Shown: piece by piece, positions 2,622-64,000 of the stretch
Layout of the letters: each line of letters opens with the position of its first letter
How positions within the stretch are numbered: the stretch's first letter is position 1
Assembly (NCBI GenBank): GCA_963837945.1
Contig: CAWIQD010000024.1
Coordinates: forward strand, 11,469-75,468
DNA: 64,000 nucleotides
Source of the DNA: an uncultured Acidobacteriota bacterium
Lineage (GTDB): Bacteria > Acidobacteriota > Thermoanaerobaculia > Multivoradales > DATKCC01
Direction of reading: 5' to 3'
Position numbers and translations under genes: made by a program
The notes under the pieces: generated by a model
Seen by the model: only the letters and a program-made list of their open reading frames with translations
What the model was told of the DNA's origin: nothing
Database searches by the model: none

Positions 2622-2827
2622 TGCTCGTAGACAGGTGAGCCCGAGAGGTGGCGGACGGCGGGGCCCGGCCTCTGGCCTCGTGGCCTGGGTCGGGTCAGGT
2701 CAGGCCAGGTGCTGTCCTGACGGGGTGTTGGCAGATCGGCGGCTCTCGGGCGGCGGGGCAGAACCGGGCCGAGGCGCCGCTCCGGCGGCGGCTGGTCGCT
2801 CTCGAGACGGGTGAGCGCCCAAAGCGG

Positions 2828-3058
2828 CTACTCGCCGCCGCGCTTCCGGAGCTCTCGTCTCGCCGCCCGGATCAGGCGATCCCGCGACCACCCGGAGACG
2901 CTCAGGTCGGAGCGCTCCGCCGCTCGGCGCAGGAGCTCCAGGTCCGACTCCCTCATCCGCAGTCGAATCGCCGCCTCGAACCGCTCGGTGGGCCTCTTCT
3001 TGGGGCGAGCCATGGCCGGACTGTAGGCCGATACGATCAGCCCGTCAACCCTTGACAA
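2828..3058 (-). CDS. Small ribbon-helix-helix (RHH, CopG/MobC-like) DNA-binding protein; the alternative start at 3013 gives 61 aa
   Basis: The sequence ARPKKRPTERFEAAIRLRMRESDLELLRRAAERSDLSVSGWSRDRLIRAARREL shows the typical RHH beta-strand plus two helices pattern. Confidence 0.45.
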   Translation of the reverse strand: MSRVDGLIVSAYSPAMARPKKRPTERFEAAIRLRMRESDLELLRRAAERSDLSVSGWSRDRLIRAARRELRKRGGE

Positions 3059-8900: not shown

Positions 8901-9584
8901 AGGGATTGCGACATTTTTTTCTGCCTCGAGAAGACAAGCGGCTTGCTGTGTGGAAACCGGCGAGGAACCTTTCGAGGGATTGCGACCGTTGTCTCCAACC
9001 GCTCTCCTCCACTCCGTCCACTGAGTGGAAACCGGCGAGGAACCTTTCGAGGGATTGCGACCCATTTCAAGAGAGACCAGTTGACACTGACCCCTCCCGT
9101 GGAAACCGGCGAGGAACCTTTCGAGGGATTGCGACACAATCGTGCGACGGAGAGATCGAAGTGGAGGACTTTCGCCGTGGAAACCGGCGAGGAACCTTTC
9201 GAGGGATTGCGACAGAGACTTGCAGGAATTGGATCATACCATCCTCCTTTTGGGTGGAAACCGGCGAGGAACCTTTCGAGGGATTGCGACTGGTCAGGGC
9301 CTAGGTAGCGGCCGTCGCCGTCGAAGTGGAAACCGGCGAGGAACCTTTCGAGGGATTGCGACAGCTCAACGATGAGTAGTTTCACGACGTCCTCCCGCGG
9401 TGGAAACCGGCGAGGAACCTTTCGAGGGATTGCGACATTGTGCCATCCGGGTGTAGTCCACGCCGTCGCCGGCGCTGGAAACCGGCGAGGAACCTTTCGA
9501 GGGATTGCGACGAGCGCTGGGCGAGCGGTCGATGGTTCCACGTCGAGGTGGAAACCGGCGAGGAACCTTTCGAGGGATTGCGAG
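5983..9584 (+). CRISPR. CRISPR array 2: 49 copies of the 37-nt repeat GTGGAAACCGGCGAGGAACCTTTCGAGGGATTGCGAC with spacers of ~31-43 nt; one 20-nt partial repeat at ~6407-6426; the penultimate repeat has G1->C and the last repeat ends GCGAG
   Basis: Direct counting of repeat ends (6019, 6093, ... 9511, 9584). The repeat differs from the array 1 repeat at 4 of 37 positions (8, 17, 21, 26). The same leader-repeat junction motif precedes it. Confidence 0.95.
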
Positions 9585-33279: not shown

Positions 33280-33588
33280 GTGCCACCCCCTCGTCCTGCC
33301 GGGATGGGGGTGCGGGTGGTCCGGAGCTTCCTCCGTCACGTGGAGGGATAAATGAGCTGCATCCCCCGCGCAGCCGTGTGGACTGCCGCGCCTAGAACCT
33401 TAAGCGCCAAGTGGGTGTCCGCGCCACCGGCCATCAGCGTCCCCGTTCGAGCGGGGCTGGCACAGTCCGGCGGGTGAAGACTCCCTAGTTGTATATGTTG
33501 GTTCTACCATGGGTTGGCCCATCACGAACCACGCAGGGGATGCAAACTCTTCGACCTTCGTCATATCTCTAGGACGGCCACCGGTGGA
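33280..33588 (-). ncRNA. Candidate non-coding RNA region between zapA and rny (possibly 6S/SsrS-like by synteny)
   Basis: A ~310-nt intergenic region with locally reduced GC (...CTAGTTGTATATGTTGGTTCTACCATGG...). 6S RNA commonly lies immediately downstream of zapA. No structure verified. Confidence 0.2.
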
Positions 33589-49019: not shown

Positions 49020-50896
49020 GACCGCGGGCGACCGTCCTCGCTCTCTTGCTCCTGACGGGTTCCGCCGTACAGGCCTCGCCCAATGGGACCGTTCCCGACC
49101 CTCCGGTAGCTCCTCCGGCGATCGCCCGAGCGCCTCGCGAGGCGTCCTCGGGGCTCGAGGCCCTCGAGCTCCGGCTCGCCGGGAACGCCGAGCTCCAGGC
49201 TCGCACCCTGGCACCCCTGGCCGCCGGGCTCCTGGCGCCCGACCCTGCGCGGCGCGAGGCCGCCGCGAGCGAGCTCACCGCCCTCGCCCGGGCGCGCGGC
49301 CTGCGCCTCACCCGGCGCGGCGGACCGTGGGGCGACGACGACCTCCAGAGCCTGGTCTCGCTGCTCCTGGTCGATCCCGTCCGCTTCCTCAGGGACGACG
49401 TCTTCCGGGCCCGCGTGACCTCGCTCCTGCCTCGCGCGCTGGCCCCGGAGACCGCTCCGGGCCTCGTCGCCCAGACCCTCGACCACCTCTACGCCGACGT
49501 GGGCGGCTTCAGCTTCGCCGACTCGGAAGCGATCGAGGTGGCCTGGGGCGCCGCGCCCCGTTCGAGCGCGTCCCGCGAGGCCCGCTTCGCGGCCGGCGAG
49601 CTCCGCTTCCCCGACGAGCTCGACGATCCGATCGCGGCCACGATCTTCTCGTTCCCCTCGAGCGTTTTCGCCCCCGAGGACGTTCGCCCCCTGCTCGCCG
49701 CGCTCCGAAGCCTCGACCCGCGCCGCACCCTGGTCGCCCTCGCCGACTCGCCCATGGCCCGGAGCCTCGCCGCGACGGCGCGCGAGCTCGACGTCCACCT
49801 CGTCGAGACCTACGGGCGCCCGTACTCCCCCTGGCCCCGCGATCCGTTCAGCACCGCGGTGCGCGGCGACGGCGGTCTCGCCCTGGTCTCGCGGCCGTAT
49901 CGGCAGAGGGGCCGGGAGGCGGACTCCGACATGGCGCGCGAGCTGGTCCAGTCCCTGCCCGCGAAGCTCGACGAGAGATGGGGCGAGCCGGTCTGGGAGG
50001 AAGCCCCGATCCCCTTCCACAACGGCCACGTCCTCATGGCCGGCGGCGCGGCCTGGATCTCGCTCCACTCCTTGGAGCTCCAGATCCTTCGCGGGCTCGA
50101 TCTCGAGCGGGTCCCGGTGGCGAGCTTCGCGAGCGCCGCGGGGATCGACCGGTACCTGGCGGCGGCCCGCCGGGCGATGGCCGAGATGGCGGACCTCTAC
50201 GGCAAGCCGGTTCACCTGGTCCACCCGTTGCCCGAGCGCGGCACGGCGGCCGAGCGCGCCGCCCTCATGAGGCGGATCGGCGGCGGCGCCGGCTTCGACC
50301 TCGACTCGTTCCTCACCTTCCTGCCCGGCGAGGGGGGCCGCCTCCACGCCCTGGTGGGCGACGTCGGCGCGGGGCGCCGCCTGCTCCAGGGGCTCGACGC
50401 CTCCGGCTGGCGGGCCCTCCGCGAAACCTATGGCCTGGCACCGGCCGGCACCGAGCTCGCCTCCCAGCTCCTCGCCTATCAGGCCGGTGCCCGCGCCGCC
50501 GGCCTCCAGGGCTTTCTCGACCTGATCGCGGAACACTTGACGAGCTCGGGCCTCGTGGTCGGCCGGCTCCCTCTCCTCCTGGTCCCGGTCGACCTGCTCG
50601 CCGGCTCGCGAGACCTCTCCTACCCCGACTTCGTCCTCGGCTGGAACAACGTCGTGGTCGAGGTGCACGACGGCAAGCCCGCGGCCGAGGGCTTCGCCTC
50701 GCTCCTGCCGAGCGGCGACCGACTCGCCCGCGAGACCTACGCCCGGGCGGGGACCGAGCTCGAGCTGCTGCCCCCGCTGGTGGCGAGCGTCGTCCACAAC
50801 GGAGGCTATCGCTGCGCCTCGAACCAGGTGCGGATTCCGCGCCGCCCGCAGCCGGCGGCGAGCCCGCCTCCCGGGAATTCCGATCCGGGACCCTGA
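49016..50896 (+). CDS. Secreted amidinotransferase-fold (agmatine deiminase / peptidyl-arginine deiminase-like) protein
   Basis: WPRDPF motif, FHNGHVLMAGG and the C-terminal GGYRCASNQ resemble the guanidino-group-modifying-enzyme catalytic Cys region. Tentative. Confidence 0.35.
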   Translation: MRPRATVLALLLLTGSAVQASPNGTVPDPPVAPPAIARAPREASSGLEALELRLAGNAELQARTLAPLAAGLLAPDPARREAAASELTALARARGLRLTRRGGPWGDDDLQSLVSLLLVDPVRFLRDDVFRARVTSLLPRALAPETAPGLVAQTLDHLYADVGGFSFADSEAIEVAWGAAPRSSASREARFAAGELRFPDELDDPIAATIFSFPSSVFAPEDVRPLLAALRSLDPRRTLVALADSPMARSLAATARELDVHLVETYGRPYSPWPRDPFSTAVRGDGGLALVSRPYRQRGREADSDMARELVQSLPAKLDERWGEPVWEEAPIPFHNGHVLMAGGAAWISLHSLELQILRGLDLERVPVASFASAAGIDRYLAAARRAMAEMADLYGKPVHLVHPLPERGTAAERAALMRRIGGGAGFDLDSFLTFLPGEGGRLHALVGDVGAGRRLLQGLDASGWRALRETYGLAPAGTELASQLLAYQAGARAAGLQGFLDLIAEHLTSSGLVVGRLPLLLVPVDLLAGSRDLSYPDFVLGWNNVVVEVHDGKPAAEGFASLLPSGDRLARETYARAGTELELLPPLVASVVHNGGYRCASNQVRIPRRPQPAASPPPGNSDPGP

Positions 50897-50914
50897 GACT
50901 GCTAAGATCCGCTC

Positions 50915-51853
50915 GTGCGGGAAGCCATCGTGAACGATCAGGCGGTCCTCGAGGAAGGTCCGCGGGGGGGCGCCGCGCCGCGCGAGCTCGCCCCTCGGGT
51001 GGTCTCCTCCCCGGGCCTGCTGCGGCGCCTGATCCTGCGGGAGAGCCCCCGCAAGGTGAAGGTCAACGCCGCCCTGCGCTTCTACCACGAGGTGCTGGGG
51101 CTCGATCACTTGCACTACGGGCTGTGGAACGGCGAGCCCCGCAACCTCGAAGGGCTCAAGGCCGCCCAGCACCGCTTCTCGTGCCACCTGCGCGAGTGGA
51201 TCCCCGACGACGTGCGGAGCATCCTCGACGTGGGCTGCGGCACCGGATCGACCTCGTTGCTCCTCAAGGAGGCCGGCTTCCGGGTGGAAGGCCTGTCGCC
51301 CGACCCGTACCACCGCGACATCTTCGCCCGGCGGGTGGCGGAGCCGTTCCACCTGCGCCGGTTCCAGGAGTTCGAGCCTCCGCGGATCTACGACCTGGTG
51401 CTCATGAGCGAGTCGGCGCAGTACATCTGGCTCGATCGGATCTTCCCCGCGGTGCGGCGCTCGGGTGCGCCCGGCGGCTACCTGCTGGTGGCCGACTACT
51501 TCACCGTCAACGGCTGTCACGGAGCCCTCGCCAAGAGCGGTCACCCCCTCGACGCCTTCCTCGAGCGGGCCGAGGACTGCGGCCTCCTGCTCGAACGCAG
51601 CGAGGACGTCACCGAGGCGGTGGCGCCCACTCTCGCCCTGGCCCGGAGCTGGCTCGAGGCCTACGTCGAGCCCTGCCTGAGCATGGCCTCGGACTCCCTC
51701 GCCTCCCGTCACCCGCACGTGGCCCGGCTCGGCAGATGGCTCTTCCGGAGCCGGATCGCGAAGATGTTCGAGCTCAAGAGGCTCGTCGACTGCGAGGAGT
51801 TCCGGCGTAACAAGCGCTACTTTTTCTTGCTGTTCCGTCTGCCCCGCCGCTAA
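50915..51853 (+). CDS. Class I SAM-dependent methyltransferase
   Basis: ILDVGCGTGSTSLLL motif I; LVLMSESAQYI post-I. Confidence 0.7.
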   Translation: MREAIVNDQAVLEEGPRGGAAPRELAPRVVSSPGLLRRLILRESPRKVKVNAALRFYHEVLGLDHLHYGLWNGEPRNLEGLKAAQHRFSCHLREWIPDDVRSILDVGCGTGSTSLLLKEAGFRVEGLSPDPYHRDIFARRVAEPFHLRRFQEFEPPRIYDLVLMSESAQYIWLDRIFPAVRRSGAPGGYLLVADYFTVNGCHGALAKSGHPLDAFLERAEDCGLLLERSEDVTEAVAPTLALARSWLEAYVEPCLSMASDSLASRHPHVARLGRWLFRSRIAKMFELKRLVDCEEFRRNKRYFFLLFRLPRR

Positions 51854-51910
51854 GAGCTCAGGAACGGCGCCTCCCCGATCCAACACCTACGCTCCCGAGA
51901 TTCAGCCGTC

Positions 51911-53600
51911 ATGAGCCGATCGACGTACGCCGCCTCGCTCTTCCTCGCCGCCCTCCTGGCCATGACGGGCCTCTCCCGGGCGCAGCAGCCGCCGGCGCAA
52001 CCGTCTCCGGCTCCCGCTCCGACTGCCGCGAACGGCTCCGCGCGGGACCCGAAGGCGATCCTCGACCAGGCCGTCGCCGAGGTCGCGGCGGGCCACCTGA
52101 AGGAGGCCGTGGCACTCCTCGAGCCCCTTCGCGACCGGCCCGACACCCCGGTATCGGTGCTCGCCACCTTGGGCGCGCTCTACCTCCAGGTCAACCGGGC
52201 CGGCGACGCCTTCACGATCCTCGAGCCCATGGCCAAGGAGAAGAACGCCAACGCCGGGGTGCTCTACAACGCCGGCAAGGCCGCGGCGTTCGTCGGCAAG
52301 ATCCTCGAAGCCGAATCCTTCTACGAGCGCTCGGTCGCTCTCGAGCCGAACACGCCCGCCTCTCGGGAAGCTCGGTCTGCTCCGCGGTCAGGAGAACCGG
52401 TTCCGCCAGGCCCTCGTGCTTCTGCTGCCCTGGGCCCGGAGCCACCCGGACGACACCGAGGCGCGCCTGGCCGCGGCCTTCGCGGCGATCCGCCTCGAGC
52501 GGCCGCGAGACGCCGAGGAGCTCCTCTCGGGCCTGCCGCAGACCGATTCGCGCGTCCGCCTCGCCCAGGGCAACCTCCTGCTGCTCGAGAACGATGCCGA
52601 CGGAGCGATCACCGCTCTCCGGCCGCTGGTCGAGGGCTCGGAGGCCCAGGGGTCGAACGCTCTCGCGGACGACGCTCGCCGTCTCCTGGCCGATGCCTAC
52701 CTCGGGGCCGGCAAGCCCGAGGACGCCGTCGCCACGTTGAAAGGCCACCTGGGAGGACCTCCGTCCCACCTGACGATGGCGCGCGCCCAGTACCAGGCGG
52801 GCGATCACGAGGGGGCGATCGAGACGCTCACCCCGTTCGCCGAGCTGATCCTCCAGCACTCTCCCGACGAAGCCGACCCCCGGTGGCCGATGGCGGCCGA
52901 GGCCGCTCTGGACTACGGCCGCTGGCTGCTGGCCGCCGGCCGGGCCGGGGCCGCCGTGCCCTACTTCCGCGTGGTCACCCAGGTACGGCCCGGCGACCAG
53001 GACGCCTGGCAGGGCCTCGGGCAGGCGCTCACGGCGACCGGGGAGCGCGACGCCGGACAGAAGGCGCTCGCGAAGTCCCAGGAGCTCGCGAAGCAGGGGG
53101 GCGACGCCTCCCGGCAGGTCCCCGAGCGGGTCGCGGACCCCACCGGCGCCGAGGTCGAGCGGGCGCGCGAGCTGCTCGGCGAGGGCAAGGCCCGGGACGC
53201 GCTGCAGCTCCTCCACTCGGAGATCGTCCTCGCGCCCAGGGACGTCCGGCCCCGCCTGCTGGCCTCGAGAACCCTGCTGCTGCTGGGGCGCGCCCAAGAG
53301 GCTCTCCAGGCGGCCCAGCAGGCACTCGACCTGGAGCCGGCCAATCCGGACGCCCTCTACCAGCGGGGCACCGTCGAGATGTCCCTGAAGGACCTGGACG
53401 CCGCCGAGGCCGACCTGCGGCAAGCCCTGAAGCTCGCGCCCGACCACCTGCCGGCGATGGACGACCTGGCGGTGCTGCTCATGGTCGAGGGCAAGCGGGA
53501 CGAGGCCCGGGAGCTGCTCCGGAAGGTCCTGGAGATCCGGCCCGACGACTCCCAGGCCAAGGCGAACCTGGCCAAGCTCGAAGCGAAGAACCCGTCGTAG
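51911..53600 (+). CDS. Secreted TPR-repeat protein; apparent frameshift near 52350-52380 (ORFs 51911.. and 52416..53600)
   Basis: Both halves are TPR-like in adjacent frames. The first frame has no stop until 53617. Confidence 0.5.
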
Positions 53601-55202
53601 GTGAAGGCCCTCGGTAGAGCACGATCCGCCGGATCGCCCGGCACCCTCGAGGCGCGCAGGCCCGTGGCCCCGATCACCACGGCGGCCGCCCTGGCCGCCG
53701 CCGGCGCCTTCGCGCTGCTGCGTCTCGCCCTCGCTCCGACCTTCGAGCTCCTGCCCCAGAGCGCCTACTACTTCACGGCCTACGCCGAGCACCTGGCACT
53801 CTCCTACTACGACCATCCGCCGATGGTCGGCTGGCTGCTCCGCGCGGGAGCCGAGCTCTTCGGGCGGACGACCTTCGGCGTCCACCTCACCCTCTGGCTC
53901 GCGACGCTCGGAACCCAGCTCGCTTTTCTCTGGGTCGCCCGCCGGGTGCTGGGGCCGGCCAAGGGTGCCTTCGCCCTGGCGCTCCTCGCCTCGACCACGA
54001 TGGTCGCCCTGCTCTCCTTCGTCGCCGTCCCGGACGTTCCGCTCCTGCTCTTCTGGACCCTCGCCGTCGGAGCCCTCGACCGGGCTCTCGTCGGGGCGGC
54101 CCCGGGGGAGGACGCGGTCGGGCCGGCGCCGGGGCGACCCGGCGCCTGGCTCGCCGCCGGCCTCGCCATGGGCCTCGCGCTGCTCGCGAAGTACACGGCC
54201 CTCTATCTCCAGGGCGGCCTCGTCCTCTTCCTCCTGGTCTCGCGCCCGCACCGGCGCCTGCTGCGCACCCCCTGGCCCTACGCCTCGCTGGCGCTCGCCC
54301 ATGTCGTCTGCCTGCCGGTGTATCTCTGGAACGCGCGCCACGGCTTCGCGTCGTTCCTCTTCCAGTCGGCCGGGCGGGCGGAGGAGATCCGCTTCGATCC
54401 GGGCGACCTGCTGGGATTCCTGGCGGGCCAGGCGGCGGTCCTGCTGCCAGTGCTCTTCGTCGCCTTCCTGGTGAGCGCCTGGCGCGGCACGCGGAGGCTC
54501 GCGCCGGGCGGCGGCGCGGCGCGGGAGCCCAGAACCCTCCTGCTGCTCTGCCTCTCTCTTCCCCTCCTCGCCACCTGTGTCGTCCTCGCGCCTTTCGCCT
54601 GGGTCAAGATGAACTGGGCGATGCCGGCCTACGTCGCCGGCGTGCTCCTGGCGGCCCCGGCGATGGGGCGGCGGGCCTGGCGCTGGCAGCTCGGGACGGC
54701 GGTCGTCGTCCACCTGCTGCTCGCCGTCGAGCTGGTCGCCTACCCGGTGCTGCCGACGAACGAGGAGGCGTGGTTCGGCTGGGACGAGCTCGCGGCCCGA
54801 GTGGAGGCGCAGGCGGCGGGCCATCCCGGCGCCTTCGTCTTCGCCGGCGACAACTACCGCACGACGGCGGAGCTGCGCTTCTACGGTCCGCGCCACGGCC
54901 TGACCCGCGCCTACGGCATGGACGTGATCGGCTGGAACGCCCTGGGCTACGAGTACGTGGGGGAGGACCTCGGGGACCTGGCCGGACGCGACGCCCTCTT
55001 CCTGCGCTCCGAGCCCCTCTCCGGCCCGAGCGCCGAGACGCAGCGCTACCTGGCCCAGGCCCGGCGCTACTTCGCGGCCGTCCGGGAGGTCGAGCCGATC
55101 GCGATCCGCCGGCACGGCCGGGTCGTCCGGCGCTTCCGCGTGTTCTTCTGCGCCGGGTACCGCGGTCCGGACGCACCGCGACCGGGAGGGGGCGTCCATT
55201 GA
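53601..55202 (+). CDS. GT39/GT83-like membrane glycosyltransferase (ArnT/PMT family)
   Basis: YYDHPPMVGWL and multiple TM helices. Confidence 0.65.
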   Translation: MKALGRARSAGSPGTLEARRPVAPITTAAALAAAGAFALLRLALAPTFELLPQSAYYFTAYAEHLALSYYDHPPMVGWLLRAGAELFGRTTFGVHLTLWLATLGTQLAFLWVARRVLGPAKGAFALALLASTTMVALLSFVAVPDVPLLLFWTLAVGALDRALVGAAPGEDAVGPAPGRPGAWLAAGLAMGLALLAKYTALYLQGGLVLFLLVSRPHRRLLRTPWPYASLALAHVVCLPVYLWNARHGFASFLFQSAGRAEEIRFDPGDLLGFLAGQAAVLLPVLFVAFLVSAWRGTRRLAPGGGAAREPRTLLLLCLSLPLLATCVVLAPFAWVKMNWAMPAYVAGVLLAAPAMGRRAWRWQLGTAVVVHLLLAVELVAYPVLPTNEEAWFGWDELAARVEAQAAGHPGAFVFAGDNYRTTAELRFYGPRHGLTRAYGMDVIGWNALGYEYVGEDLGDLAGRDALFLRSEPLSGPSAETQRYLAQARRYFAAVREVEPIAIRRHGRVVRRFRVFFCAGYRGPDAPRPGGGVH

Positions 55203-55219
55203 TACCATCCCGAGCCGTG

Positions 55220-57238
55220 ATGCGCGCCGGCCGTCGTCTCCTCGCTCGCACCTTTCCCGCCTCGCTCCTGCTCGTCGCCGCCCTCGCCGCACTCGGGTGC
55301 GGCGGCCGGCGGGACCCCCTGGAGGCGGTACCCGAGGGGCGGCCGGTCGTCCTCGTCTCCATCGACACCTTGCGCTCCGACCATCTGCCGGCGTACGGCT
55401 ACGATCGGGTGGAGACCCCGGCGATCGATGCGCTCCGCGCCGACGGCATCCTCTACGAGCGGGCCTACAGCGAGGTGCCCCTCACCCTGCCCTCCCACGC
55501 TTCGATCCTCACCGGCCTCCTGCCGCCCGCCCACGGCGTGCGCGACAACGCCGGCTATCGCCTGAGCGAAGCGGTGGGGCCGACGCTCGCCCAGCGCCTC
55601 CACGACGCCGGCTACGCGACGGGCGCCGCGGTGTCGTCCTACGTGCTGCGTCACGAGACCGGCCTCGCTCGAGGGTTCGACCTCTACGACGACCACGTCG
55701 CGCCGGGGCACGAGAAGACGATCGGTGAGATCCAGCGGCCCGGGCCCGAGACGCTCCAGGCGGTGCTGCCCTGGCTGCGCTCGGCGGTCCACCGCCCGTT
55801 CTTCCTCTTCTTCCACATCTACGAGCCCCACACGCCGCGCGACCCGCCGGAGCGCTTCGCCGCCCGCTACGGCAAGACCTACGACGGCGAGGTGGCGGCG
55901 GCCGACGCGGTGGTCGGGCAGCTCGTCGACGAGCTCAAGGTCCTCGACCTCTACGACCGCTCGACGATCGTCCTGCTGGCGGATCACGGCGAGGGCCTGG
56001 GCGACCACGGCGAGGACGAGCACGGCGTGCTCCTCTACCGCGAGAGCCTGCAGGTGCCGCTGATCGTCAAGCTCCCCGGCTCGGCCGGCGCCGGGGCCTC
56101 GGTGGCCACGCCCGCCGAGCTCGTCGACGTGGCGCCGACGATCCTCGCTCTCGCCGGCGCCGAGGTGCCCGCCTCGCTCCCCGGCACCTCGCTCCTCGCG
56201 CTCGCCGAGGCGGCGCGGCGCTCGGCGGGCGACGGCGACCGAGCCGAGCCCCGGGCGCTCTACTCCGAGTCGTTCCACGCCCGGCTGCGCTTCGGCTGGA
56301 GCGGCCTGACCTCGGTCATCCGGGGCCGCTACCAGTACATCGAGGGGAGCGACCGGGAGCTCTACGACCTGGCCGCCGACCCGGGCGAGACGAAGAACGT
56401 GCTGCGCTCCGAGCGCCAGGTCTACGCCTCCCTGCGCGACGCCCTCCACGGCTTCGATTCCGAGCTCCAGCAGCCGTTCGAAGAGGACGCGGAGACACGT
56501 TCTGCCCTCGCCGCGCTCGGCTACCTGGGCGGCGTCGCCTCCGGCCCGGGCGAGGGACCGCGTGCCGACCCCAAGACCATGCTCCCGGCCCTCGACGGGC
56601 TGCGCACCGGGGTCGAGATGGTCTCGCGCGGCGACAACGAGCGCGCCGTGCCGTTGCTCCGCGAGGCGACCCGCCAGATTCCCCGCTCGATCGACGCCTG
56701 GCAGTTCCTGGGGCTGGCCCTCGACCGCCTGGGGCACGAAGAGGAGGCCCTGGCCGACTACCGGCGGGCGTTCGATCTCTCGAACGGCTCGCCGCTCCTC
56801 GCCAAGCCGCTCGCCCGGGTGTCGCTCCAGCTCGGGCACCTGGACGACGCGGTCCAGTTCCTGCGCCTGGCCGTCGACCAGGAGCCGGACGACATGGCGC
56901 TGCGCCTCCTCGAGGCCCGGACGCTCCTCGTCTCGGGCCACCCGCAGGACGCCCTCGAGGCCGCCGGCAAGGCGGTCGAGATGGCGCCCGGGTCGGCCGA
57001 CGCCCGCTACCTGCGCGGAGCCGCGGAGGTGGCTGCGGGCAAGCTCGCCGACGCGGAGCGCGACCTGCGCCAGGCGCTGGAGCTCGCTCCCGACCATCCG
57101 GCGGCGCTCAACGACCTGGCGGTGCTCCTGCTGGAGCAGGGCCGGCGCGACGAGGCCCGGAGCCTCCTCGAGCACCTGGTCCGGATCCAGCCGGGCAACC
57201 AGGCCGCGCGCCGGGACCTGGCCTATCTCGAGCGCTAG
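55220..57238 (+). CDS. Sulfatase-like hydrolase/transferase + TPR lipoprotein, paralog 3
   Basis: Lipobox LGCGG. VVLVSIDTLRSDHLPAYGY...EVPLTLPSHASILTG...LADHGEGLGDHGE. Confidence 0.6.
   Translation: MRAGRRLLARTFPASLLLVAALAALGCGGRRDPLEAVPEGRPVVLVSIDTLRSDHLPAYGYDRVETPAIDALRADGILYERAYSEVPLTLPSHASILTGLLPPAHGVRDNAGYRLSEAVGPTLAQRLHDAGYATGAAVSSYVLRHETGLARGFDLYDDHVAPGHEKTIGEIQRPGPETLQAVLPWLRSAVHRPFFLFFHIYEPHTPRDPPERFAARYGKTYDGEVAAADAVVGQLVDELKVLDLYDRSTIVLLADHGEGLGDHGEDEHGVLLYRESLQVPLIVKLPGSAGAGASVATPAELVDVAPTILALAGAEVPASLPGTSLLALAEAARRSAGDGDRAEPRALYSESFHARLRFGWSGLTSVIRGRYQYIEGSDRELYDLAADPGETKNVLRSERQVYASLRDALHGFDSELQQPFEEDAETRSALAALGYLGGVASGPGEGPRADPKTMLPALDGLRTGVEMVSRGDNERAVPLLREATRQIPRSIDAWQFLGLALDRLGHEEEALADYRRAFDLSNGSPLLAKPLARVSLQLGHLDDAVQFLRLAVDQEPDDMALRLLEARTLLVSGHPQDALEAAGKAVEMAPGSADARYLRGAAEVAAGKLADAERDLRQALELAPDHPAALNDLAVLLLEQGRRDEARSLLEHLVRIQPGNQAARRDLAYLER
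57002..57232 (+). repeat. Direct repeat copy A (231 bp, the 3' end of paralog 3)
   Basis: ~97% identical to 57770-58001. Confidence 0.85.
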
Positions 57239-57350
57239 AAGCCGACGAGGCCCAGCTCGTCCAGACTATCCTCGCATCCCCAAAGGCAAGCGTCGGTCCT
57301 CGTAGTTTCGCAGGGTAGCGTCCAAGGCGCTCAGGAAGCGCTGCTGCCCG

Positions 57351-57707
57351 TCAGTTGCACCCGATATCCACGTATTGGGTTTCGTTGTCCCCGAAGTAAT
57401 CTCCGTGCCTGATGTTTCCGCGAGAGGCAACCAGAAAGATTTTGTGGTGTCCTGCGGGCAACTGCTTGGAGGTCGTCTCGCCCCCGGAGAAGCCGTTGGC
57501 ACCATCGTCGAATGTCCAGGCGTAGGTTTCGACCTCACCAGTCGTACAGCTGGCGTCGAGAGCGCAGTACCCGCCGCACGTGCATGCCACATCGAAGCAG
57601 GCCGTGATGCCTCCACTTGCTTCTGCCGGCGACGGCGCGCTGGCTGACAGCACCAGAATCGAAAGGGAGGACAAGAGAACGAGAAGAACTGAGCGCTTCA
57701 TTGGCAT
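57351..57707 (-). CDS. Small secreted Cys-rich protein (118 aa) encoded in a low-GC insert
   Basis: Signal peptide MPMKRSVLLVLLSSLSILVLSASA. The mature part has 7 Cys (CFDVACTCGGYCALDASC...DIGC). Local GC ~55% versus ~70% elsewhere. Confidence 0.4.
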   Translation of the reverse strand: MPMKRSVLLVLLSSLSILVLSASAPSPAEASGGITACFDVACTCGGYCALDASCTTGEVETYAWTFDDGANGFSGGETTSKQLPAGHHKIFLVASRGNIRHGDYFGDNETQYVDIGCN

Positions 57708-57769
57708 TGTCTCCTAATGTAGTTAACTATGTCTTTCATTATACACGCACTCATGGGGGAAAAGTCAAG

Positions 57770-58001
57770 GCCCGCTACCTGCGCGGAGCCGCGGAGGTGG
57801 GTGCGGGCAAGCTCGCCGACGCGGAGCGCGACCTGCGCCAGGCGCTGGAGCTCGCTCCCAACCATCCGGCGGCGCTCAACGACCTGGCGGTGCTCCTGCT
57901 CGAGCAGGGCCGGCGCGACGAGGCCCGGAGCCTCCTCGAGCACCTGGTCCGGATCCAGCCGGGCAACCAGGCCGCCCGCCGGGACCTGGCCTATCTCGAG
58001 G
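57770..58001 (+). repeat. Direct repeat copy B (duplicated 3' end of the paralog 3 gene, not attached to a full gene)
   Basis: Encodes ...YLRGAAEVGAGKLADAERDLRQALELAPNHPAALNDLAVLLLEQGRRDEARSLLEHLVRIQPGNQAARRDLAYLEGH. Confidence 0.85.
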
Positions 58002-58028
58002 GCCACTGAGGCTGCGCACCGGGCCGGC

Positions 58029-59901
58029 CTACTTCGCCCGGTCCACCGGCGACTCCTCCCAGGGGCTCCGCACCGGCTTGCCCTGCTCGTAGAGCGTGAG
58101 CCACCGGTGGTTGCGCGCGATCACCTCGGGGCGCCCGCGCGGCTCGATCTCTCCGAGCACGCGACGCTGCCAGGCGACGGCTTCGGCGAATCGGCCCGCC
58201 TCGGCGTACGCCATCGCCACCGTCTCGGCGCGCTCCTCGTTCGGCTCGCGACGGAAGGCGTCCTCGGCGAGCCGCACCGCCTCGGCTCCGTCGCGGGCCG
58301 CCGGGTCGGGGGCGGTCGCCAGCAGCCGGCCGAGCAGATGGGAGAGGACCAGGTTGCCGGGCAGGGCGACGAGATCGCTCTCGAGCGCCTTGCGGGCGTC
58401 GACGTACTCGCCGCCCAGGATCAGGGCCATCGCCCGCCCGAAGCGGGTGTCGGCGTCCTCCGGCGCCAGCTCCACGACCCGGGAGAAGCTCCTGGGCCGC
58501 CGCGCGAAAGCGGCCCAGGCGGCCCAGGAGCTTCGCGAGCTCGAGGTGCGCGGCCCGGGAGTCGGGCAGGAGCTCGGTGGCCCGCCGGAAGTGCGCGGCC
58601 GCGCCCTGGGAGTCGCCCGTCTGATCGAGGGCGCGGGCGAGATCGAGCTCGGCCTTCCCGGTGAGCTCGACCTCGTCCGGCCGGAGCTGGCCGAGAAGCG
58701 CCTCGAGCTCCTGGGCGGCGCGCGGGAGCTCGGCCGCGCGAAGCAGAGCCTCGGCCCACCGCAAGTGGGCGGCGTGGTCGAGCGGATCGATCTCGACCGT
58801 CTTGCCGTAGTGCTCGGCCGCCTCCTGCCACCGGCCCTCCTCCGCCAGGGCGCTCGCCAGGTTGTACTGGGCGTTGCGGTAGGCGGGGTCGAGCTCGATC
58901 GCCTTCTCGAACCGCTCGACGGCCTCGTCCCTCCGGCCGGCCTGGATCAGTGCGGAGCCCAGGTTGTACTGGTTCACGGCGTCGTCCGGAGCGACCTCGA
59001 CCGCCTTGCGGTACTCGCGGAGGGCAATGTCCAGGAGCCCCTTTTGGAGCGCGTTGTTGCCCCGTTTCGCGTGGATCGCGGCCCCCTTGAGAAGGCCGCT
59101 GAGCTGATCCATACGGGGGTCGGAGAAGCGCGCGTCATGGCCGTGGGCGAGAGCCAGGTGCTCTTTCGCGCGGGCCAGATCGCCGGTGTCGCGGTACGCC
59201 ACGCCGAGCTGGTACTGGATGGCGTCGGCCGACGGCTGGAGCTCGAGCGCCCTCTCGAAGAGCGTGATCGCGTCCCCCGGCTGCTTCCGCCGCACGGCGA
59301 CCGTGCCGAGACCCTGGAGAGCCGCCGCCGATTTCGGCTGGAGCTCCAAGGCCGCCCGGTAGCTCTGCTCGGCTCCGTCGAGCTCGCCCCGCGCGAGCTG
59401 TACCTGGCCGAGGCGGATCAGGGTCGCCACGTCGGGCCCCAGGTCGCGCGCCCGGGCGAAGCTCGCTTCGGCCTCCTCCATGCGGCCTTGGCGCCGGTAG
59501 AGGAAGCCCAGGTAGTACGGCCACGAGGGGTCAGCGGGGGCCAGCCTCTCGGCGTCGGCGAGCGCCGGCTCGGCGGCGTCCGCCAGGTCGTAGAGCAGGT
59601 ACAGGCTCCCCATCCGCCCGTAGGCGGCCGCCAGCTCGGCGTCGGAAGCGTTCCCCGTAGCGACCCGTTCCGCGAGATCCTGGCGCTCGATCCGGAGCTG
59701 CTCCTGGTCCTCCGGCTCGAGGTTGCCGATCGGCGGCGCGGGCACCGGCTCGAGGCCCGGCCGCGGCGGGGCCAGCGGGGTGGCGGCCTCGCCGGCGGCA
59801 ACGCGCGGAGCCTCCGGGGCCTGGTCGCCGGCCACCGCCCGGGCCGCGGAGAGGGCGAAGACGAGGAACGGGACGAAGGCCGCGGCGCAAAGAGCCCTCA
59901 T
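58029..59901 (-). CDS. Secreted TPR-repeat protein; apparent frameshift near 58480-58520
   Basis: MRALCAAAFVPFLVFALSAARA signal. TPRs continue in the adjacent frame (58029..58475). Start overlaps the FG-GAP gene stop (ATGA). Confidence 0.5.
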
Positions 59902-61674
59902 GGCGCCGGCGCCCCGCCGCCCTCGTAGAGCGTCGCGTAGCGCCCGGCCTCGAGCCGCGTCCATTGCTCGCTCCGCCCGTCGGGCCAGTCCACCCGCAAC
60001 CCGGTGACGTCGGCGGCTCCACCCGCCTTGGGGCCCAGGCCGAAGAGCACCCGCGGATCGTTCGAGGAGCCGTAGCTGCCGCAGGTCCTCGCCTCGCGGT
60101 AGAGCGTGGGCGCGCCCTTCCGGTAGAGGACGGCGCGCGCGCCCAGCATGTCGCGCACGCCACCCCCGCCGCCGGCCGCTCCGACCAGGCGCAGGCCGAG
60201 CCAGGGCTCGTCCTGGGCGACCTGGTCGACGAGGAGGCGCGCGGGGCCGGCGCTGTTGGCGACCAGGAGGTCCGAGTCGCCATCCTCGTCCACGTCGCCC
60301 ATGGCGACGCCGCGGCTCACCTCCGAAAGCCGGAAGACCTTGCCGGCCTCGTCCGTGACCTCCTCGAAGCGGCCGCCACCCAGGTTGTGGTAGAGGCTGT
60401 TGGTCTGGTGGAGGGCGTAGGCGTCGCCGGCGCGCACCTCGTCCCAGAGGAGCGTCACCGCCCCGTTGGCGACGAAGAGGTCCTGGAGGCCGTCGCCGTC
60501 GTAGTCGACGAGCGCGGTGCCGAAGCCGGTGAAGCGCCAGGAGGGCGTGCCCAGACCGGTCTGCTGCGAGCGATCCTCGAAGATGGCGTGCCCGTCGTTC
60601 AGGTAGACCGTGTTGGTCTCGTGCGCGAGGTGGGTCATGAACAGGTCTTCGGTGCCGTTGCCGTCGAGGTCCCCGGTCACCACCCCCATGCTCGCCTCGG
60701 GCTGGCCCATGGCGTTGACCGAGCAACCGCCCAGCAGCGCGCCGTTCTGGAAGGTGCCGTCGTGCTGGTTGAGCCAGAGCTGGTTGGGCAGGCCGTCGTT
60801 GGCCACGTAGAGGTCCACCCAGCCGTCGCCGTCGAAGTCCGCCGCCGTGGCGCCGAGCGCCGGGCCGAACTCCGACGCGATCCCGGAGCTCGCGGTCACG
60901 TCCTCGAAGGTGCCGTCGCCCCGATTGTGAAACAGACGGTCGGGCTCCGGCTCGAAGGCCGATGGGCCACAGTAGTCGCGGGCGCCCGCGGGCGTGCTGC
61001 ACGGCTTGTCGGTGGCGGCGCGGAAGTCCACGTAGTTGCCCACGAAGAGGTCCAGCCGGCCGTCGCGGTCGTAGTCGAAGAAGACCGCCGGCACGCTCCA
61101 GCGGGGGTCGTCCGTACCGCTCCTCGCGGTCGCGTCCTCGAACGTGCCGTCGCCCCGGTTGTGGAGCATCTGGTTCGAGCCGCCGTAGTTGGTGACGTAG
61201 AGGTCCACCCAGCCGTCGCCGTCATAGTCGCCGGCGGCGACCCCCATGCCGTAGCCGGTGCCCAGGGCGCCGCTCCGGGAGGTGACGTCGGTGAAGTGGA
61301 CGACCTGGGTGCCGTCGGGCGCGAGCGTAGGTGTCGTTGCGGTACAGGCGGTCGCTCAGGGGCACCGGGTACTTCGGGGGGAACGTGGCGTCGGCCACCG
61401 TCTTGCCCTTGCCGAGCATCGTGCCCTGGACCATGTAGACGTCGAGGTCGCCGTCGCCGTCGTAGTCGACCAGCGCCGCCCCCTGGCCCATCATCTCGGC
61501 GAAGTCGAGCTCGCCGGACATGCCGTTGAAGTGCACGAAGTCGAGCCCCGTCTCGGCCGCCCGGTCGACGAACAGGTCGCCCGGCGGGGAGGGCGCGGCG
61601 GCCCCGAGCAGCGCGGCGGTGAGCGGCGCGAGCAGGAGCCGGCGAAGCGGCCGGAAGACGGGGGCGCGGCGCAT
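59898..61674 (-). CDS. FG-GAP repeat / ASPIC-UnbV (CRTAC1-like) secreted protein; apparent frameshift near 61300-61330
   Basis: Repeated DYDGDGWVDLYV, DYDRDGRLDLFV and DFDGDGWVDLYV motifs. The N-terminal signal peptide part is in the adjacent frame (61222..61674). Confidence 0.6.
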
Positions 61675-61677
61675 CGA

Positions 61678-63792
61678 CTACGACCCGATGCCGCCCAGAA
61701 TGCGTTGCGCCTCGCCGCGCTCGGCGGCGTAGCCCGCCTCGGGCGCCGCCGCCAGGAAACGGCCCAGGGCCTTGCGCGCGGTGCCCGCGTCGCCGATCCT
61801 GGCCGCGACCGAGCCCAGGTTGAACAGGACGTCGAGGTTGTCCGGATCGAGGGTCGCGGCGCGCTTCCAGGCCTCGACCGCGGTCTTCGGATCGCCGAGG
61901 TTGAAGTAGGCGATCGCCAGGTTGTTCCAGGCGTTGGGCCGGCGGCCCTCGAGGGCCAGGGCGCGGCGGGCGGCGTCGCGCGCTTCGGCGTAGCGCCGGC
62001 GCTGGATCGCCACGAAGGAGAGGGTCTCGAGCGGCCGCGGGTCCCGGGGCCGGGCGCCGGCCGCCTTCTCGAGGACGGAGGTCGCCTCGTCGTAGCGCCC
62101 GAGCGCGGCGTACGCCAGGGCGAGGGCGTTCTCGGTGTCGGCGTCGGAGGCGTCCGGGTCCACCGTCTCGAGCAGCTTCACCGCTTCGGCCGGGCGCCCG
62201 GCCCGCACCAGGCTCAAGCCGAGCTGCTGGCGCAACGCGGCGTTGGCGGCGCCGGCCCGGTCGGCCGCTTCGAGGAGCGCCAGGGCTCCGGCGTTGTCGT
62301 CGCGCTGGAGGAGGATCCGCGTGAGGTACTCGTAGGCCACCGTCATCGTCGGGCGGGCCGCCACGATCTCGCGGCCCAGCCGCACCGCCTCATCGTACCT
62401 CCCCGCGGTGTAGAGCTGCACCATCGAGTTGAGCTTGCGGTCGAGCTCGATCAGGTTCTTGGGGTCGTCCTCCGGGCCGTAGGCGGCCTTGCCGGGGGCC
62501 GAGCCGCCGAGGTAGCCCAGGCTCCGGAGCTCGGCCGCCTCCTCCGGCGCGACCGTGCCCGCGGCCGGCGGCCAGACCGACTCGCGGGGGAGCGTCGCGG
62601 CCAGCTCGTGGGCCTCGCGCGGGCGGTCCTGGAAGAGGTTCCGGGTCTCCCCGGGGTCGGCCGCCAGGTCGTAGAGCTCCGGGATCGGCAGCTCGATCAG
62701 CTTGACGTGGCGCCGGATCACGCCGCGCAGCGGCGCGGCGCCGAACTCGAGGTTGGGCGAGAGCGATTCGAAGTAGGCCGTGCGCGAGGAGTCGGCGGGG
62801 CCGACCAGCGAGCGGCCCGGCAGATCGGCGGGCGGGGCGACGCCCAGCAGAGCGAGCGCGGTGGGCATCAGGTCGACGTGCTGGGCGAGGCGGCCGTCGC
62901 TTCCCGGCTCGACGCCCGGGCCCCAGAGGACCATCGGCACCCTCAGGGTCGGCTCGTAGGCGAAGAAGCTGTGGGTCGCCTCGCCGTGCTCGCCCAGGGC
63001 CTCGCCGTGATCGGCGGTGAACACGATCAGGGTGGGCGCCTCCCGGCCCGCCAGGAAGCCGTCGAGGAGCGGCGCCAGGTAGGAGTCGACCGCCGCCACC
63101 TCCCCGAGGTAGGGCTGGCCCCCGGCGAAGCGCGCGGGCGGAGCGTACGGGGCGTGCGGATCGAAGAGATGGAGCCAGAGGAAGCGCCGGCGGCCCCGGT
63201 TCTCCCGCCACCAGCGGCTGCCGCGCTCCACCACCTCGCTGCCCGGCCGCTCGGGGTAGGTGAACAGATGCTCGCCCTGGCCTTCCCTGCCGCCGCCGAA
63301 GTCGTCGTCGTAGACGTCGAAGCCGCGGTCGAGGCCGTAGCGCGAGTCGAGGGCGAAGGAGCCGACGACGGCGGCGGTGGCGTAGCCGGCGGCGTGCAGC
63401 ACCGTCGCCAGCGTCGGGACGTCCGGGCCGAGCTTGAAGCCGCCGTTGTTCCTCACGCCGTGCTGGTAGGGATAGAGGCCGGTCAGGATGTTGGTGTGGG
63501 AGGGCAGAGTGACCACGTTCTGGGCGTGGGCGTCGGTGAAGACGCGGCCGGCGGCGGCCAGCCGGTCGAGGGCCGGGGTCGCGACCTCGGTGTTGCCGGC
63601 GAAACCGAGGGCATCGGAGCGCAGGGTGTCGACGGTGATCAGGAGGAGGTTCTCGGGCGGGCCCGCCGGGGCGGCAGCGGGGGACGAGGCGGCCGGGGCC
63701 GGGTCGGCGCTCCCGCCCCCCTCGCGGTCCGCCGGCCGGTCCGTGCAGCCCGCCAGGACGAGCAGGGCGGCGAGCGCCGCCCACGCCCTCAC
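61678..63792 (-). CDS. Sulfatase-like hydrolase/transferase + TPR lipoprotein, paralog 4
   Basis: The GTG start overlaps the upstream stop (GTGA), giving MRAWAALAALLVLAGC (lipobox). LLLITVDTLRSDALGF...NVVTLPSHTNILTG...FTADHGEALGEHGE. Confidence 0.6.
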   Translation of the reverse strand: MRAWAALAALLVLAGCTDRPADREGGGSADPAPAASSPAAAPAGPPENLLLITVDTLRSDALGFAGNTEVATPALDRLAAAGRVFTDAHAQNVVTLPSHTNILTGLYPYQHGVRNNGGFKLGPDVPTLATVLHAAGYATAAVVGSFALDSRYGLDRGFDVYDDDFGGGREGQGEHLFTYPERPGSEVVERGSRWWRENRGRRRFLWLHLFDPHAPYAPPARFAGGQPYLGEVAAVDSYLAPLLDGFLAGREAPTLIVFTADHGEALGEHGEATHSFFAYEPTLRVPMVLWGPGVEPGSDGRLAQHVDLMPTALALLGVAPPADLPGRSLVGPADSSRTAYFESLSPNLEFGAAPLRGVIRRHVKLIELPIPELYDLAADPGETRNLFQDRPREAHELAATLPRESVWPPAAGTVAPEEAAELRSLGYLGGSAPGKAAYGPEDDPKNLIELDRKLNSMVQLYTAGRYDEAVRLGREIVAARPTMTVAYEYLTRILLQRDDNAGALALLEAADRAGAANAALRQQLGLSLVRAGRPAEAVKLLETVDPDASDADTENALALAYAALGRYDEATSVLEKAAGARPRDPRPLETLSFVAIQRRRYAEARDAARRALALEGRRPNAWNNLAIAYFNLGDPKTAVEAWKRAATLDPDNLDVLFNLGSVAARIGDAGTARKALGRFLAAAPEAGYAAERGEAQRILGGIGS

Positions 63793-64000
63793 GAGCCTCC
63801 CCCGTCGAGGGCGTCGAGGGCCCGGCGGAACCACTCGCTGCCGAGCTCGACGTAGTGGCTGGCGCCCGGGATCTGGACGTAGGTCACGTGCTCGAAGCCT
63901 TCCTTCTCCATCGCCCGGTAGGTCGCGCCGGTCTGCAGGCGGTTGAAGTCGACCTCGCCGGTCACCAGGACGAAACGGCTCGCGCGGCGCAGCCGGTCGA
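63789..64000 (-). CDS. 3' end of a gene extending beyond the window (possible alpha/beta-hydrolase-like C-terminus)
   Basis: ...FVLVTGEVDFNRLQTGATYRAMEKEGFEHVTYVQIPGASHYVELGSEWFRRALDALDGGGS stop. Confidence 0.3.
   Translation of the reverse strand, partial: DRLRRASRFVLVTGEVDFNRLQTGATYRAMEKEGFEHVTYVQIPGASHYVELGSEWFRRALDALDGGGS

What the first reader, a model, noticed from the sequence alone, without database searches (positions are those of the whole stretch)
57002..58001. ~540-bp low-GC insert encoding a Cys-rich secreted peptide, bracketed by 231-bp direct repeats of the 3' end of the sulfatase-like/TPR gene
Copies A (57002-57232) and B (57770-58001) are ~97% identical. Copy B recreates the last 76 codons of paralog 3 but is attached to no gene. 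Between them lies ~55% GC DNA carrying a 118-aa signal-peptide protein with 7 cysteines (CFDVACTCGGYCALDASC...). This architecture, cargo DNA plus a duplicated target-gene 3' end, is what site-specific integration into the 3' end of a gene produces when the element carries a replacement 3' end. A duplication-mediated gene-cassette capture would look the same. The peptide could be a bacteriocin-like or adhesin-like secreted factor. Alternatively the repeat could be an assembly collapse artefact.
Basis: seen in the sequence. Interest (0 to 1): 0.6.

Follow-up and report, generated by a model that had tools for sequence, protein, structure and literature searches.

The report
Foreign mini-gene flanked by duplicated gene end
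A 0.53-kb piece of foreign DNA, carrying one small secreted PKD-fold protein gene, sits at the end of a sulfatase-TPR gene in an uncultured acidobacterium and is flanked by two copies of that gene's last 231 bases; it is a real but one-off insertion scar, not a recognisable mobile element.

Summary
Copies A (57002-57232) and B (57770-58000) differ at 4 of 231 bases. They bracket 531 bp of 57% GC DNA in a 74-76% GC context. The insert is one expression unit on the minus strand. It encodes a 116-aa protein with a signal peptide, one PKD-fold domain and 6 conserved cysteines (not 7). The ORF is genuine: about eight small full-length homologues exist in other metagenomes, and the structure model matches solved PKD domains. 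It is a binding-module-like protein, with no evidence that it is a bacteriocin.

Copy A completes the annotated gene with a new two-codon tail (..LER*). Copy B is a dead 3' fragment next to native downstream DNA. The two nearest genomes have a 600-aa FG-GAP/ASPIC gene at this spot, no repeat and no PKD gene.

The layout fits recombination between the chromosomal gene end and a copy of it carried on incoming DNA. An active site-specific element is not supported. No integrase was found, there is no room for one, none of 80 related loci shows the same architecture, and the insert has no other copy. Homologous single-crossover integration or repair-type duplication with captured DNA explains it equally well. 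An assembly artefact is unlikely but cannot be tested without reads. Interest is low.

The parts
55220..57238 (+). Sulfatase-TPR gene (672 aa, P0122). Its last 77 codons are copy A, followed by a new two-codon tail.
   Evidence: The translation starts MRAGRR at 55220 and equals P0122. Pfam finds Sulfatase (7e-40) plus TPR families. Orthologues are 79% and 78% identical, in L001 and L082.
57002..57232 (+). Repeat copy A: the last two TPR units plus the C-terminal tail, joined to the gene body.
   Evidence: It differs from B at 4 of 231 bases. Against the L001/L082 outgroups it is derived at 57033 (Gly to Ala) and ancestral at 57092 and 57133.
57233..57238 (+). New gene tail CGC TAG (Arg, stop), supplied by the insert side of the junction.
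   Evidence: Sequence. The alignment shows A leaving both B and the relatives exactly after CTCGAG.
57239..57350 (-). Non-coding part of the insert, downstream of the PKD gene (64% GC). No convincing terminator or attC-like fold.
   Evidence: GC. RNA fold z-score is -0.11 against shuffles. No terminal inverted repeats. No significant similarity to the relatives' FG-GAP/ASPIC gene region.
57351..57701 (-). Gene for a 116-aa secreted stand-alone PKD-fold protein with 6 conserved cysteines (P0001).
   Evidence: ORF. GC3 is 0.70. There are 121 phmmer hits, including full-length small homologues P0004 and P0008. The family has about 8 members with conserved Cys, Trp and Asp-Gly positions. The AF2 model has pLDDT 81.7 overall and above 90 in the core. 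The best PDB matches are PKD domains 4l9d, 6aem and 4aqo, TM 0.79-0.82.
57710..57715 (-). Shine-Dalgarno AGGAGA, 8 nt before the ATG at 57701.
   Evidence: Read directly.
57738..57768 (-). Promoter-like TTGACT (57763-57768) and TATAAT (57738-57743), 19 nt apart. The -35 box ends 1 nt from copy B.
   Evidence: Read directly. It is not reported by the scan tool, which allows only 16-18 nt spacers, so it is inferred only.
57770..58009 (+). Repeat copy B (57770-58000) plus its own tail GGC CAC TGA. It is a dead 3' gene fragment with no start codon or RBS.
   Evidence: It is derived at 57860 (Asp to Asn) and at 57901 (synonymous) against the outgroups.
58010..58056 (.). Short high-GC stretch unique to this genome: 19 bp of spacer plus the last ~9 codons and stop (58029-58031) of the convergent TPR gene. 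Relatives have a ~1.7-kb FG-GAP/UnbV_ASPIC gene here.
   Evidence: Synteny with L001 resumes at window 58057. Sequences are compared. There is no significant similarity to the relatives. The relatives' gene is identified by Pfam and by gene calls.

Best explanation
This is a real structural variant in the chromosome of a Thermoanaerobaculia (Acidobacteriota) MAG. A 0.53-kb horizontally acquired expression unit (promoter-like hexamers, RBS and a gene for a secreted single-PKD-domain protein) lies between the convergent ends of a sulfatase-TPR gene and a TPR gene.

It most likely entered by one reciprocal recombination inside the last 231 bp of the sulfatase-TPR gene. The partner was a slightly diverged copy of that segment carried on the incoming DNA. 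This is the Campbell topology. It leaves the gene intact, as copy A with a new ..LER* tail, and displaces a second, dead copy (B) to the far side of the cargo.

Shown:
- the repeat and the junctions;
- the foreign composition of the insert;
- that the ORF is genuine and has a PKD fold;
- that relatives lack the repeat and the cargo.

Inferred:
- the recombination mechanism;
- that it was driven by general homologous recombination (my preference, about 0.35) rather than a dedicated integrase whose element has since been deleted down to the cargo (about 0.2);
- that the PKD gene is expressed and exported.

The element as it stands is not autonomous. Its 231-bp direct repeats should make it prone to loss by homologous recombination.
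For: - Repeat and junctions.
- The insert is compositionally foreign: 57% GC and GC3 0.70, against 74% and 0.95 for the host gene.
- The novel junctions are the two that touch the insert. A's left flank and B's right flank continue into DNA that is syntenic with L001 and L082.
- The copies differ by 1.7%, and derived states are split between them: A has 1, B has 2 and 1 is ambiguous. Two population alleles meeting at integration explain this more easily than long divergence of an unstable in-situ duplication.
- Experimental precedent: single crossover of circular DNA carrying part of a gene end gave 109-950 bp duplications flanking the insert in 56 of 60 E. coli recombinants (PMC3240628).
- Natural precedent for the layout: e14 is flanked by icd and the icdC C-terminal pseudogene (PMC13626634).
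- The ORF is real.
Against: - No donor molecule, second copy of the insert or empty-site allele of this species could be found.
- A circle of only ~760 bp is an odd integration substrate. A larger one would need a later clean internal deletion.
- There is no recombinase, and none of 80 related loci shows the same architecture.
- The junctions show no informative microhomology, so sequence alone cannot separate this model from repair-type models.
- Relatives differ here by a whole FG-GAP/ASPIC gene, so at least one further rearrangement happened at the same spot and may be part of a more complex single event.
- No reads were available to confirm the assembly.
Confidence: 0.55

Rival explanations
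1. Local repair or replication error. The break lay at the end of the gene, possibly the same event that removed the FG-GAP/ASPIC gene. It was repaired by template switching or end joining that re-copied 231 bp of the gene and captured a stray 0.53-kb foreign fragment as filler. No incoming copy of the gene end was involved.
For: - There is no recombinase, no inverted repeats, no second copy of the insert and no recurrence of the architecture.
- The same spot shows another rearrangement relative to L001 and L082: a 1.7-kb gene is absent and the TPR gene tail is replaced.
- Both copies have host-like composition.
Against: - A and B differ at 4 of 231 bases, with derived changes in both. For an in-situ duplication this needs long persistence of a structure that direct repeats should delete readily.
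- No microhomology or templated filler is recognisable at the junctions.
- Capture of an intact, complete expression unit as random filler is improbable.
Confidence: 0.2
2. Remnant or integrase-less satellite of a site-specific integrative element (e14-like, or a cis-mobilisable element). The 231-bp repeats would be attL and attR, and the element carries a replacement 3' end. It would be mobilised, if at all, by a recombinase encoded elsewhere.
For: - The geometry is that of e14 with icd/icdC: the repeat runs from an internal point to the end of the ORF, the gene is kept intact and the displaced fragment lies next to native DNA.
- The copies are slightly diverged.
- The cargo is a low-GC, self-contained unit like a prophage moron.
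Against: - There is no integrase in the insert or among the screened window ORFs.
- The promoter-like -35 box abuts copy B, leaving no room for arm sites.
- None of 80 related loci has a duplicated gene end or a PKD gene.
- The insert is absent from the plasmid, phage, IMG/VR and JGI collections.
- In other lineages the PKD gene sits in conserved chromosomal contexts rather than in elements: rpmI-PKD-thrS in L081 and L089 and beside rimP in L085.
Confidence: 0.15
3. Assembly artefact. Two strain variants of one locus, or two contigs, were joined so that a single gene end appears twice.
For: - The genome is a MAG seen only once in public data.
- The 98% identity between copies is in the range of strain variation.
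- A 1-nt frameshift near a CCCGGG run in the neighbouring TPR gene, shared with L001, hints at long-read consensus errors.
Against: - Both junctions touch the same unique 531-bp insert, which has no other copy in the window.
- The outer flanks are neighbours in two related genomes.
- There are no Ns.
- The longest exact match between the copies is about 75 bp, so they are not collapsed k-mer repeats.
- The insert-to-B junction must exist in real DNA for any assembler to produce it.
Confidence: 0.1

Closest known systems
Prophage e14 (and phage 21) integration into icd of E. coli, leaving the icdC C-terminal pseudogene
   Same: The inserted DNA is flanked by the intact gene on one side and a displaced, slightly diverged C-terminal fragment of the same gene on the other. 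The repeat runs to the end of the ORF (PMC13626634).
   Different: e14 is about 15 kb and encodes its own integrase and excisionase, and the site is used recurrently in E. coli. Here the insert is 0.53 kb with one cargo gene and no recombinase, and the site is not reused in 80 related loci.
Campbell-type single-crossover integration of circular DNA carrying a fragment of a chromosomal gene (suicide-plasmid style)
   Same: It produces exactly gene - repeat - insert - repeat. Duplications of 109-950 bp of the gene end were observed experimentally, and no integrase is needed (PMC3240628).
   Different: Those events used an engineered conjugative plasmid of several kb. No natural donor circle is known here, and the whole inserted molecule would be only about 760 bp unless it was later trimmed.
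Cis-mobilisable elements (CIMEs) derived from ICEs
   Same: Short DNA bounded by attL/attR-type direct repeats at the 3' end of a gene, without its own recombination genes.
   Different: CIME att repeats are tens of bp and match those of a co-resident or related ICE. No such ICE, integrase or recurrent site was found here.
Integron gene cassettes
   Same: A single small ORF of foreign composition inserted as a unit.
   Different: Cassettes lack promoters, end in a folded attC site and sit next to intI/attI. Here the unit has its own promoter-like signals, the fold is not above background (z -0.11), there is no intI, and the flanks are a 231-bp gene duplication.
PKD domains of secreted bacterial proteases (PrtV PKD1 4l9d, Epp PKD1 6aem, ColG PKD-like 4aqo)
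   Same: The predicted fold of the 116-aa protein matches with TM 0.79-0.82 and rmsd about 2 Å. Small homologues pass the Pfam PKD_4 threshold.
   Different: It is a stand-alone domain with a signal peptide and six conserved cysteines, not a module of a large enzyme. P0001 itself scores below the Pfam threshold: 15 bits against a cut-off of 27.

Membership tests
Site-specific integrative element (prophage/ICE/genomic island, e14-like) | Encodes, or lies next to, a tyrosine or serine recombinase | tested here: not met
   The insert holds only the PKD ORF. Pfam or NCBIfam scans of 23 window ORFs gave no integrase. The only hit is a sub-threshold IS1-like transposase at 2815-4116. The rest of the genome is not available.
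Site-specific integrative element (prophage/ICE/genomic island, e14-like) | Direct repeats (attL/attR) that reconstitute the target gene's 3' end | tested here: met
   The 231-bp repeats are 98.3% identical. Copy A completes the annotated 672-aa protein.
Site-specific integrative element (prophage/ICE/genomic island, e14-like) | Same attachment site used by related elements in related genomes | tested here: not met
   Self-comparison of 80 sulfatase-TPR loci (±6 kb) found no duplicated gene end. tblastn found no PKD homologue in them. Repeats shorter than 60 bp would have been missed.
Site-specific integrative element (prophage/ICE/genomic island, e14-like) | Excision products (empty site or circular junction) in the population | not testable with these tools
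   No reads are available. No same-species sequence exists in the protein or contig collections.
IS element / MITE | Terminal inverted repeats and a short (2-14 bp) target-site duplication | tested here: not met
   There are no inverted repeats at the insert ends. The duplication is 231 bp.
Integron gene cassette | attC recombination site downstream of a promoterless ORF; intI/attI nearby | tested here: not met
   The 112-bp region downstream of the ORF folds no better than shuffles (z -0.11). The unit has its own RBS and promoter-like hexamers. No integrase was found.
PKD domain (Pfam PF18911/PF00801) | Sequence match above the family threshold | tested here: inconclusive
   P0001 scores 15 bits against a cut-off of 27. 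Its full-length homologues P0004 and P0008 score 44.6 and 47.3 bits. phmmer links P0001 to multi-PKD proteins at E down to 8e-23.
PKD domain (Pfam PF18911/PF00801) | Beta-sandwich PKD fold | tested here: met
   The AF2 model has core pLDDT above 90. The top Foldseek PDB hits are all PKD domains, with target TM 0.79-0.82.
Bacteriocin / secreted toxin peptide | Leader peptide with processing site, neighbouring immunity, transport or modification genes, or similarity to a known bacteriocin family | tested here: not met
   There are no other genes in the insert. No Pfam or NCBIfam bacteriocin family hit was found. The fold is an Ig-like binding module. Activity itself is not testable here.

The most novel reading that the evidence does not exclude
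The 0.53-kb unit is a minimal, integrase-less mobile cassette. It travels with its own replacement copy of a TPR-gene 3' end and is inserted and excised in trans by a recombinase encoded elsewhere in the genome. That would be a new way of spreading single secreted-protein genes in Acidobacteriota.
Probability: 0.06. Interest if true: 0.6.

Novelty: new member of a known kind. Interest (0 to 1): 0.2.

Why it matters
This is a clean natural example of how a single foreign gene can settle at the end of a host gene without destroying it. The duplicated gene end records the recombination event. It also adds a member to a very small, uncharacterised family of stand-alone secreted PKD-domain proteins with six conserved cysteines. 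It does not reveal a new mobile-element type or a new function. Its main practical use is as a marker of strain-level variation and as a caution for annotation, because copy B is a pseudogene fragment.

Tried and rejected
- Other low-GC islands. I asked whether islands flanked by perfect 36-38 bp direct repeats (24-61/2513-2550 and 5983-6018/9548-9583) were sister insertions. They are two CRISPR arrays. The low-GC patch at 33.4-33.8 kb is 6S RNA.
- CRISPR spacers. No spacer in either array matches the insert; the best match is 13 nt.
- Remnants of the relatives' gene. Local alignments of the DNA just after copy A or copy B against the relatives' FG-GAP/ASPIC gene are no better than shuffles, so I dropped that idea.
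- Searches for the insert or its protein elsewhere. Plasmids, phages, IMG/VR and JGI metagenomes gave no close relative. Exact look-ups of P0001 and P0122 are not on record.
- Integron cassette, IS and MITE readings were rejected.
- A mobile small-PKD gene. In other lineages the gene sits in fixed chromosomal contexts: rpmI-PKD-thrS in L081 and L089-L091, and next to rimP in L085-L087. This argues against a hopping cassette.
- A stand-alone PKD promoter. The automatic scan reports none. The TTGACT/TATAAT pair has a 19-nt spacer, so I list it only as promoter-like.
Full report
**Observation.**
- The repeat finder and a self-BLAST give 57002-57235 = 57770-58003, 97.9% identity over 234 bp, E 1.8e-111.
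- The gap-free core is 231 bp with four mismatches, at 57033, 57092, 57133 and 57208.
- The only other related sequence in the window is the 3' end of a paralogue (53352-53585), 66% identical. Copy B therefore derives from copy A's gene and not from another paralogue.
- Homology between A and B ends exactly after CTCGAG. A continues CGC TAG (..LER*). B continues GGC CAC TGA (..LEGH*).
- The public annotation of this contig (P0122, 672 aa, 55220-57238) ends with copy A.
- Copy B has no usable start. Its frame is open upstream only into the antisense of the neighbouring gene, and the only start codon is a TTG at 57617. It is a dead fragment.
- The 231 bp encode the last two 34-residue TPR units plus the C-terminal tail.

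**The insert.** Positions 57239-57769 are 57.4% GC, against 76% for the repeats and 74% for the host gene.
- The insert holds one minus-strand ORF. From the first ATG (57707) it is 118 aa. The second ATG (57701) lies 8 nt after AGGAGA (57710-57715) and is the database call (P0001, 116 aa).
- Upstream are TTGACT (57763-57768) and TATAAT (57738-57743), 19 nt apart. I treat this pair as promoter-like only.
- The -35 hexamer ends one base before copy B.
- The 112 bp downstream of the ORF have no terminator and fold no better than shuffled sequence (z -0.11).
- The insert has no terminal inverted repeats and no second copy in the window.
- Gene GC3 is 0.70, against 0.95 for the sulfatase-TPR gene. 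The unit was therefore acquired horizontally, and not long ago.

**The protein.**
- A word-indexed search found only the protein itself.
- An exhaustive phmmer search of 1.8 billion representatives found 121 hits. These include full-length small proteins P0004 (110 aa, 44% identity), P0008 (111 aa) and P0113 (124 aa). The rest are large multi-PKD proteins.
- A profile search raised the small family to about eight members of 110-125 aa.
- All share a signal-peptide-like N-terminus, six cysteines and the W-x-F/Y-D/G-D-G motif. P0001 has six cysteines, not seven.
- P0004 and P0008 pass the Pfam PKD_4 threshold. P0001 itself is below it.
- The AlphaFold model built on the family alignment is confident in the domain (mean pLDDT 81.7, core above 90).
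- Its best PDB matches are PKD domains of secreted proteases: 4l9d, 6aem and 4aqo, target TM 0.79-0.82, rmsd about 2 Å.
- The ORF is therefore a genuine gene for a secreted stand-alone PKD domain. Nothing points to a bacteriocin.
- In other lineages the gene sits in fixed chromosomal places. It lies between rpmI and thrS in L081 and L089-L091, and next to rimP in L085-L087. That is not how a hopping cassette behaves.

**Host and comparators.**
- The sulfatase-TPR protein's nearest relatives are from Thermoanaerobaculia/Acidobacteriota MAGs. The closest are 79% (L001, CAVUJU010000005.1) and 78% (L082) identical.
- No sequence of the same species exists in the collections searched.
- In both relatives the gene order PMT_2 - sulfatase-TPR - (convergent) TPR - FG-GAP/ASPIC is conserved.
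- Between the sulfatase-TPR stop and the TPR-gene stop, both relatives carry an additional ~600-aa FG-GAP/UnbV_ASPIC gene. Neither has a duplicated gene end or a PKD gene.
- In the window that gene is absent. Positions 58010-58056, which include the last ~9 codons of the TPR gene, are unique. The spot has therefore been rearranged at least once more in this lineage.
- With L001 and L082 as outgroups, copy A is derived at one of the four differing sites, copy B at two, and one is ambiguous.
- Both copies have host-like composition.

**Mechanism.** The two novel junctions are the ones that touch the insert. The outer flanks are native.

That is the topology produced when DNA carrying a copy of the gene end recombines once with the chromosomal gene end. 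It arises in nature through integrases: e14 is flanked by icd and the icdC C-terminal pseudogene (PMC13626634). It also arises through plain homologous recombination. In E. coli, 56 of 60 recombinants from a circular molecule carrying part of the lacZ end had 109-950 bp duplications of that end flanking the insert (PMC3240628).

The 1.7% divergence between A and B, with derived changes in both, fits two population alleles brought together at integration. It fits less well with slow divergence of a 231-bp direct repeat that RecA should delete readily. This is an inference.

Several results count against an intact or active site-specific element:
- No recombinase is present in the insert or among 23 screened window ORFs. 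The only hit is a sub-threshold IS1-like ORF between the CRISPR arrays.
- There is no room for arm sites on the B side.
- None of 80 related loci reuses the site.
- The insert does not occur anywhere else.

I therefore prefer the Campbell topology (confidence 0.55). Within it I put general homologous recombination at about 0.35 and a decayed integrase-driven element at about 0.2. A repair or template-switch duplication with captured filler DNA stays possible (0.2), given the neighbouring rearrangement.

**Artefact.** An assembly artefact is unlikely (about 0.1).
- The copies differ by SNPs, with at most about 75 bp of exact identity.
- Both junctions are anchored on one unique insert.
- The outer flanks are syntenic neighbours in two other genomes.
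- There are no Ns.
- Read evidence is still needed to settle it.

**Verdict.** The peptide is a PKD-fold binding module. This is an ordinary, if tidy, one-off insertion-duplication scar, and interest is low.

Noticed in passing
window 24-2551 and 5983-9583: Two large CRISPR arrays of about 33 and 48 repeats. The 37-nt repeats are GTGGAAATCGGCGAGGGACCCTTCGGGGGATTGCGAC and GTGGAAACCGGCGAGGAACCTTTCGAGGGATTGCGAC, differing at a few positions. They account for the low-GC stretches at the left end of the window. No cas gene was recognised among the ORFs between and next to them.
   Followed up: partly
window 2815-4116 (+): A 433-aa ORF between the two CRISPR arrays has an IS1/IS1595-type zinc-binding N-terminus and a weak IS1 transposase match (65 bits against a cut-off of 100). 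It is the only transposase-like gene seen in the window.
   Followed up: no
window 33359-33542 (-): 6S RNA (RF00013, 79 bits). It explains the small low-GC patch at 33.4-33.8 kb.
   Followed up: yes
window ~58478-58493 (minus-strand TPR gene 58029-~59910); L001 ~10060: The TPR gene changes reading frame near a CCCGGG run, at the same residue in both the window and L001. The L082 orthologue (631 aa) is intact. This may be a shared systematic long-read consensus error, or a real shared frameshift.
   Followed up: partly
L001 7790-9598 (-); L082 7904-9760 (-); absent at window 58010-58056: Both nearest relatives carry an extra ~600-aa FG-GAP/UnbV_ASPIC gene whose start overlaps the stop of the TPR gene (ATGA). 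The ORF as called overlaps the 3' end of the sulfatase-TPR gene by about 120-140 bp. The window lacks the gene and has a different TPR C-terminal tail.
   Followed up: partly
L081 1-1391; L089-L091: In another high-GC lineage the small PKD gene lies between rpmI and the 3' end of thrS, on the opposite strand. This is where infC is usually found, and no infC is seen in that ~700-bp gap.
   Followed up: no
window 48900-64000: The region is a cluster of repeated modules on both strands: sulfatase-TPR, PMT_2 glycosyltransferase, TPR and FG-GAP/UnbV_ASPIC. The paralogues are 65-74% identical and give long imperfect direct and inverted repeats.
   Followed up: partly
window 57359-57380 (+): A terminator-like hairpin on the plus strand lies inside the 3' end of the PKD ORF, about 120 nt after the sulfatase-TPR stop. 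It could end the sulfatase-TPR transcript, but it is weak, with 3 GC pairs.
   Followed up: no
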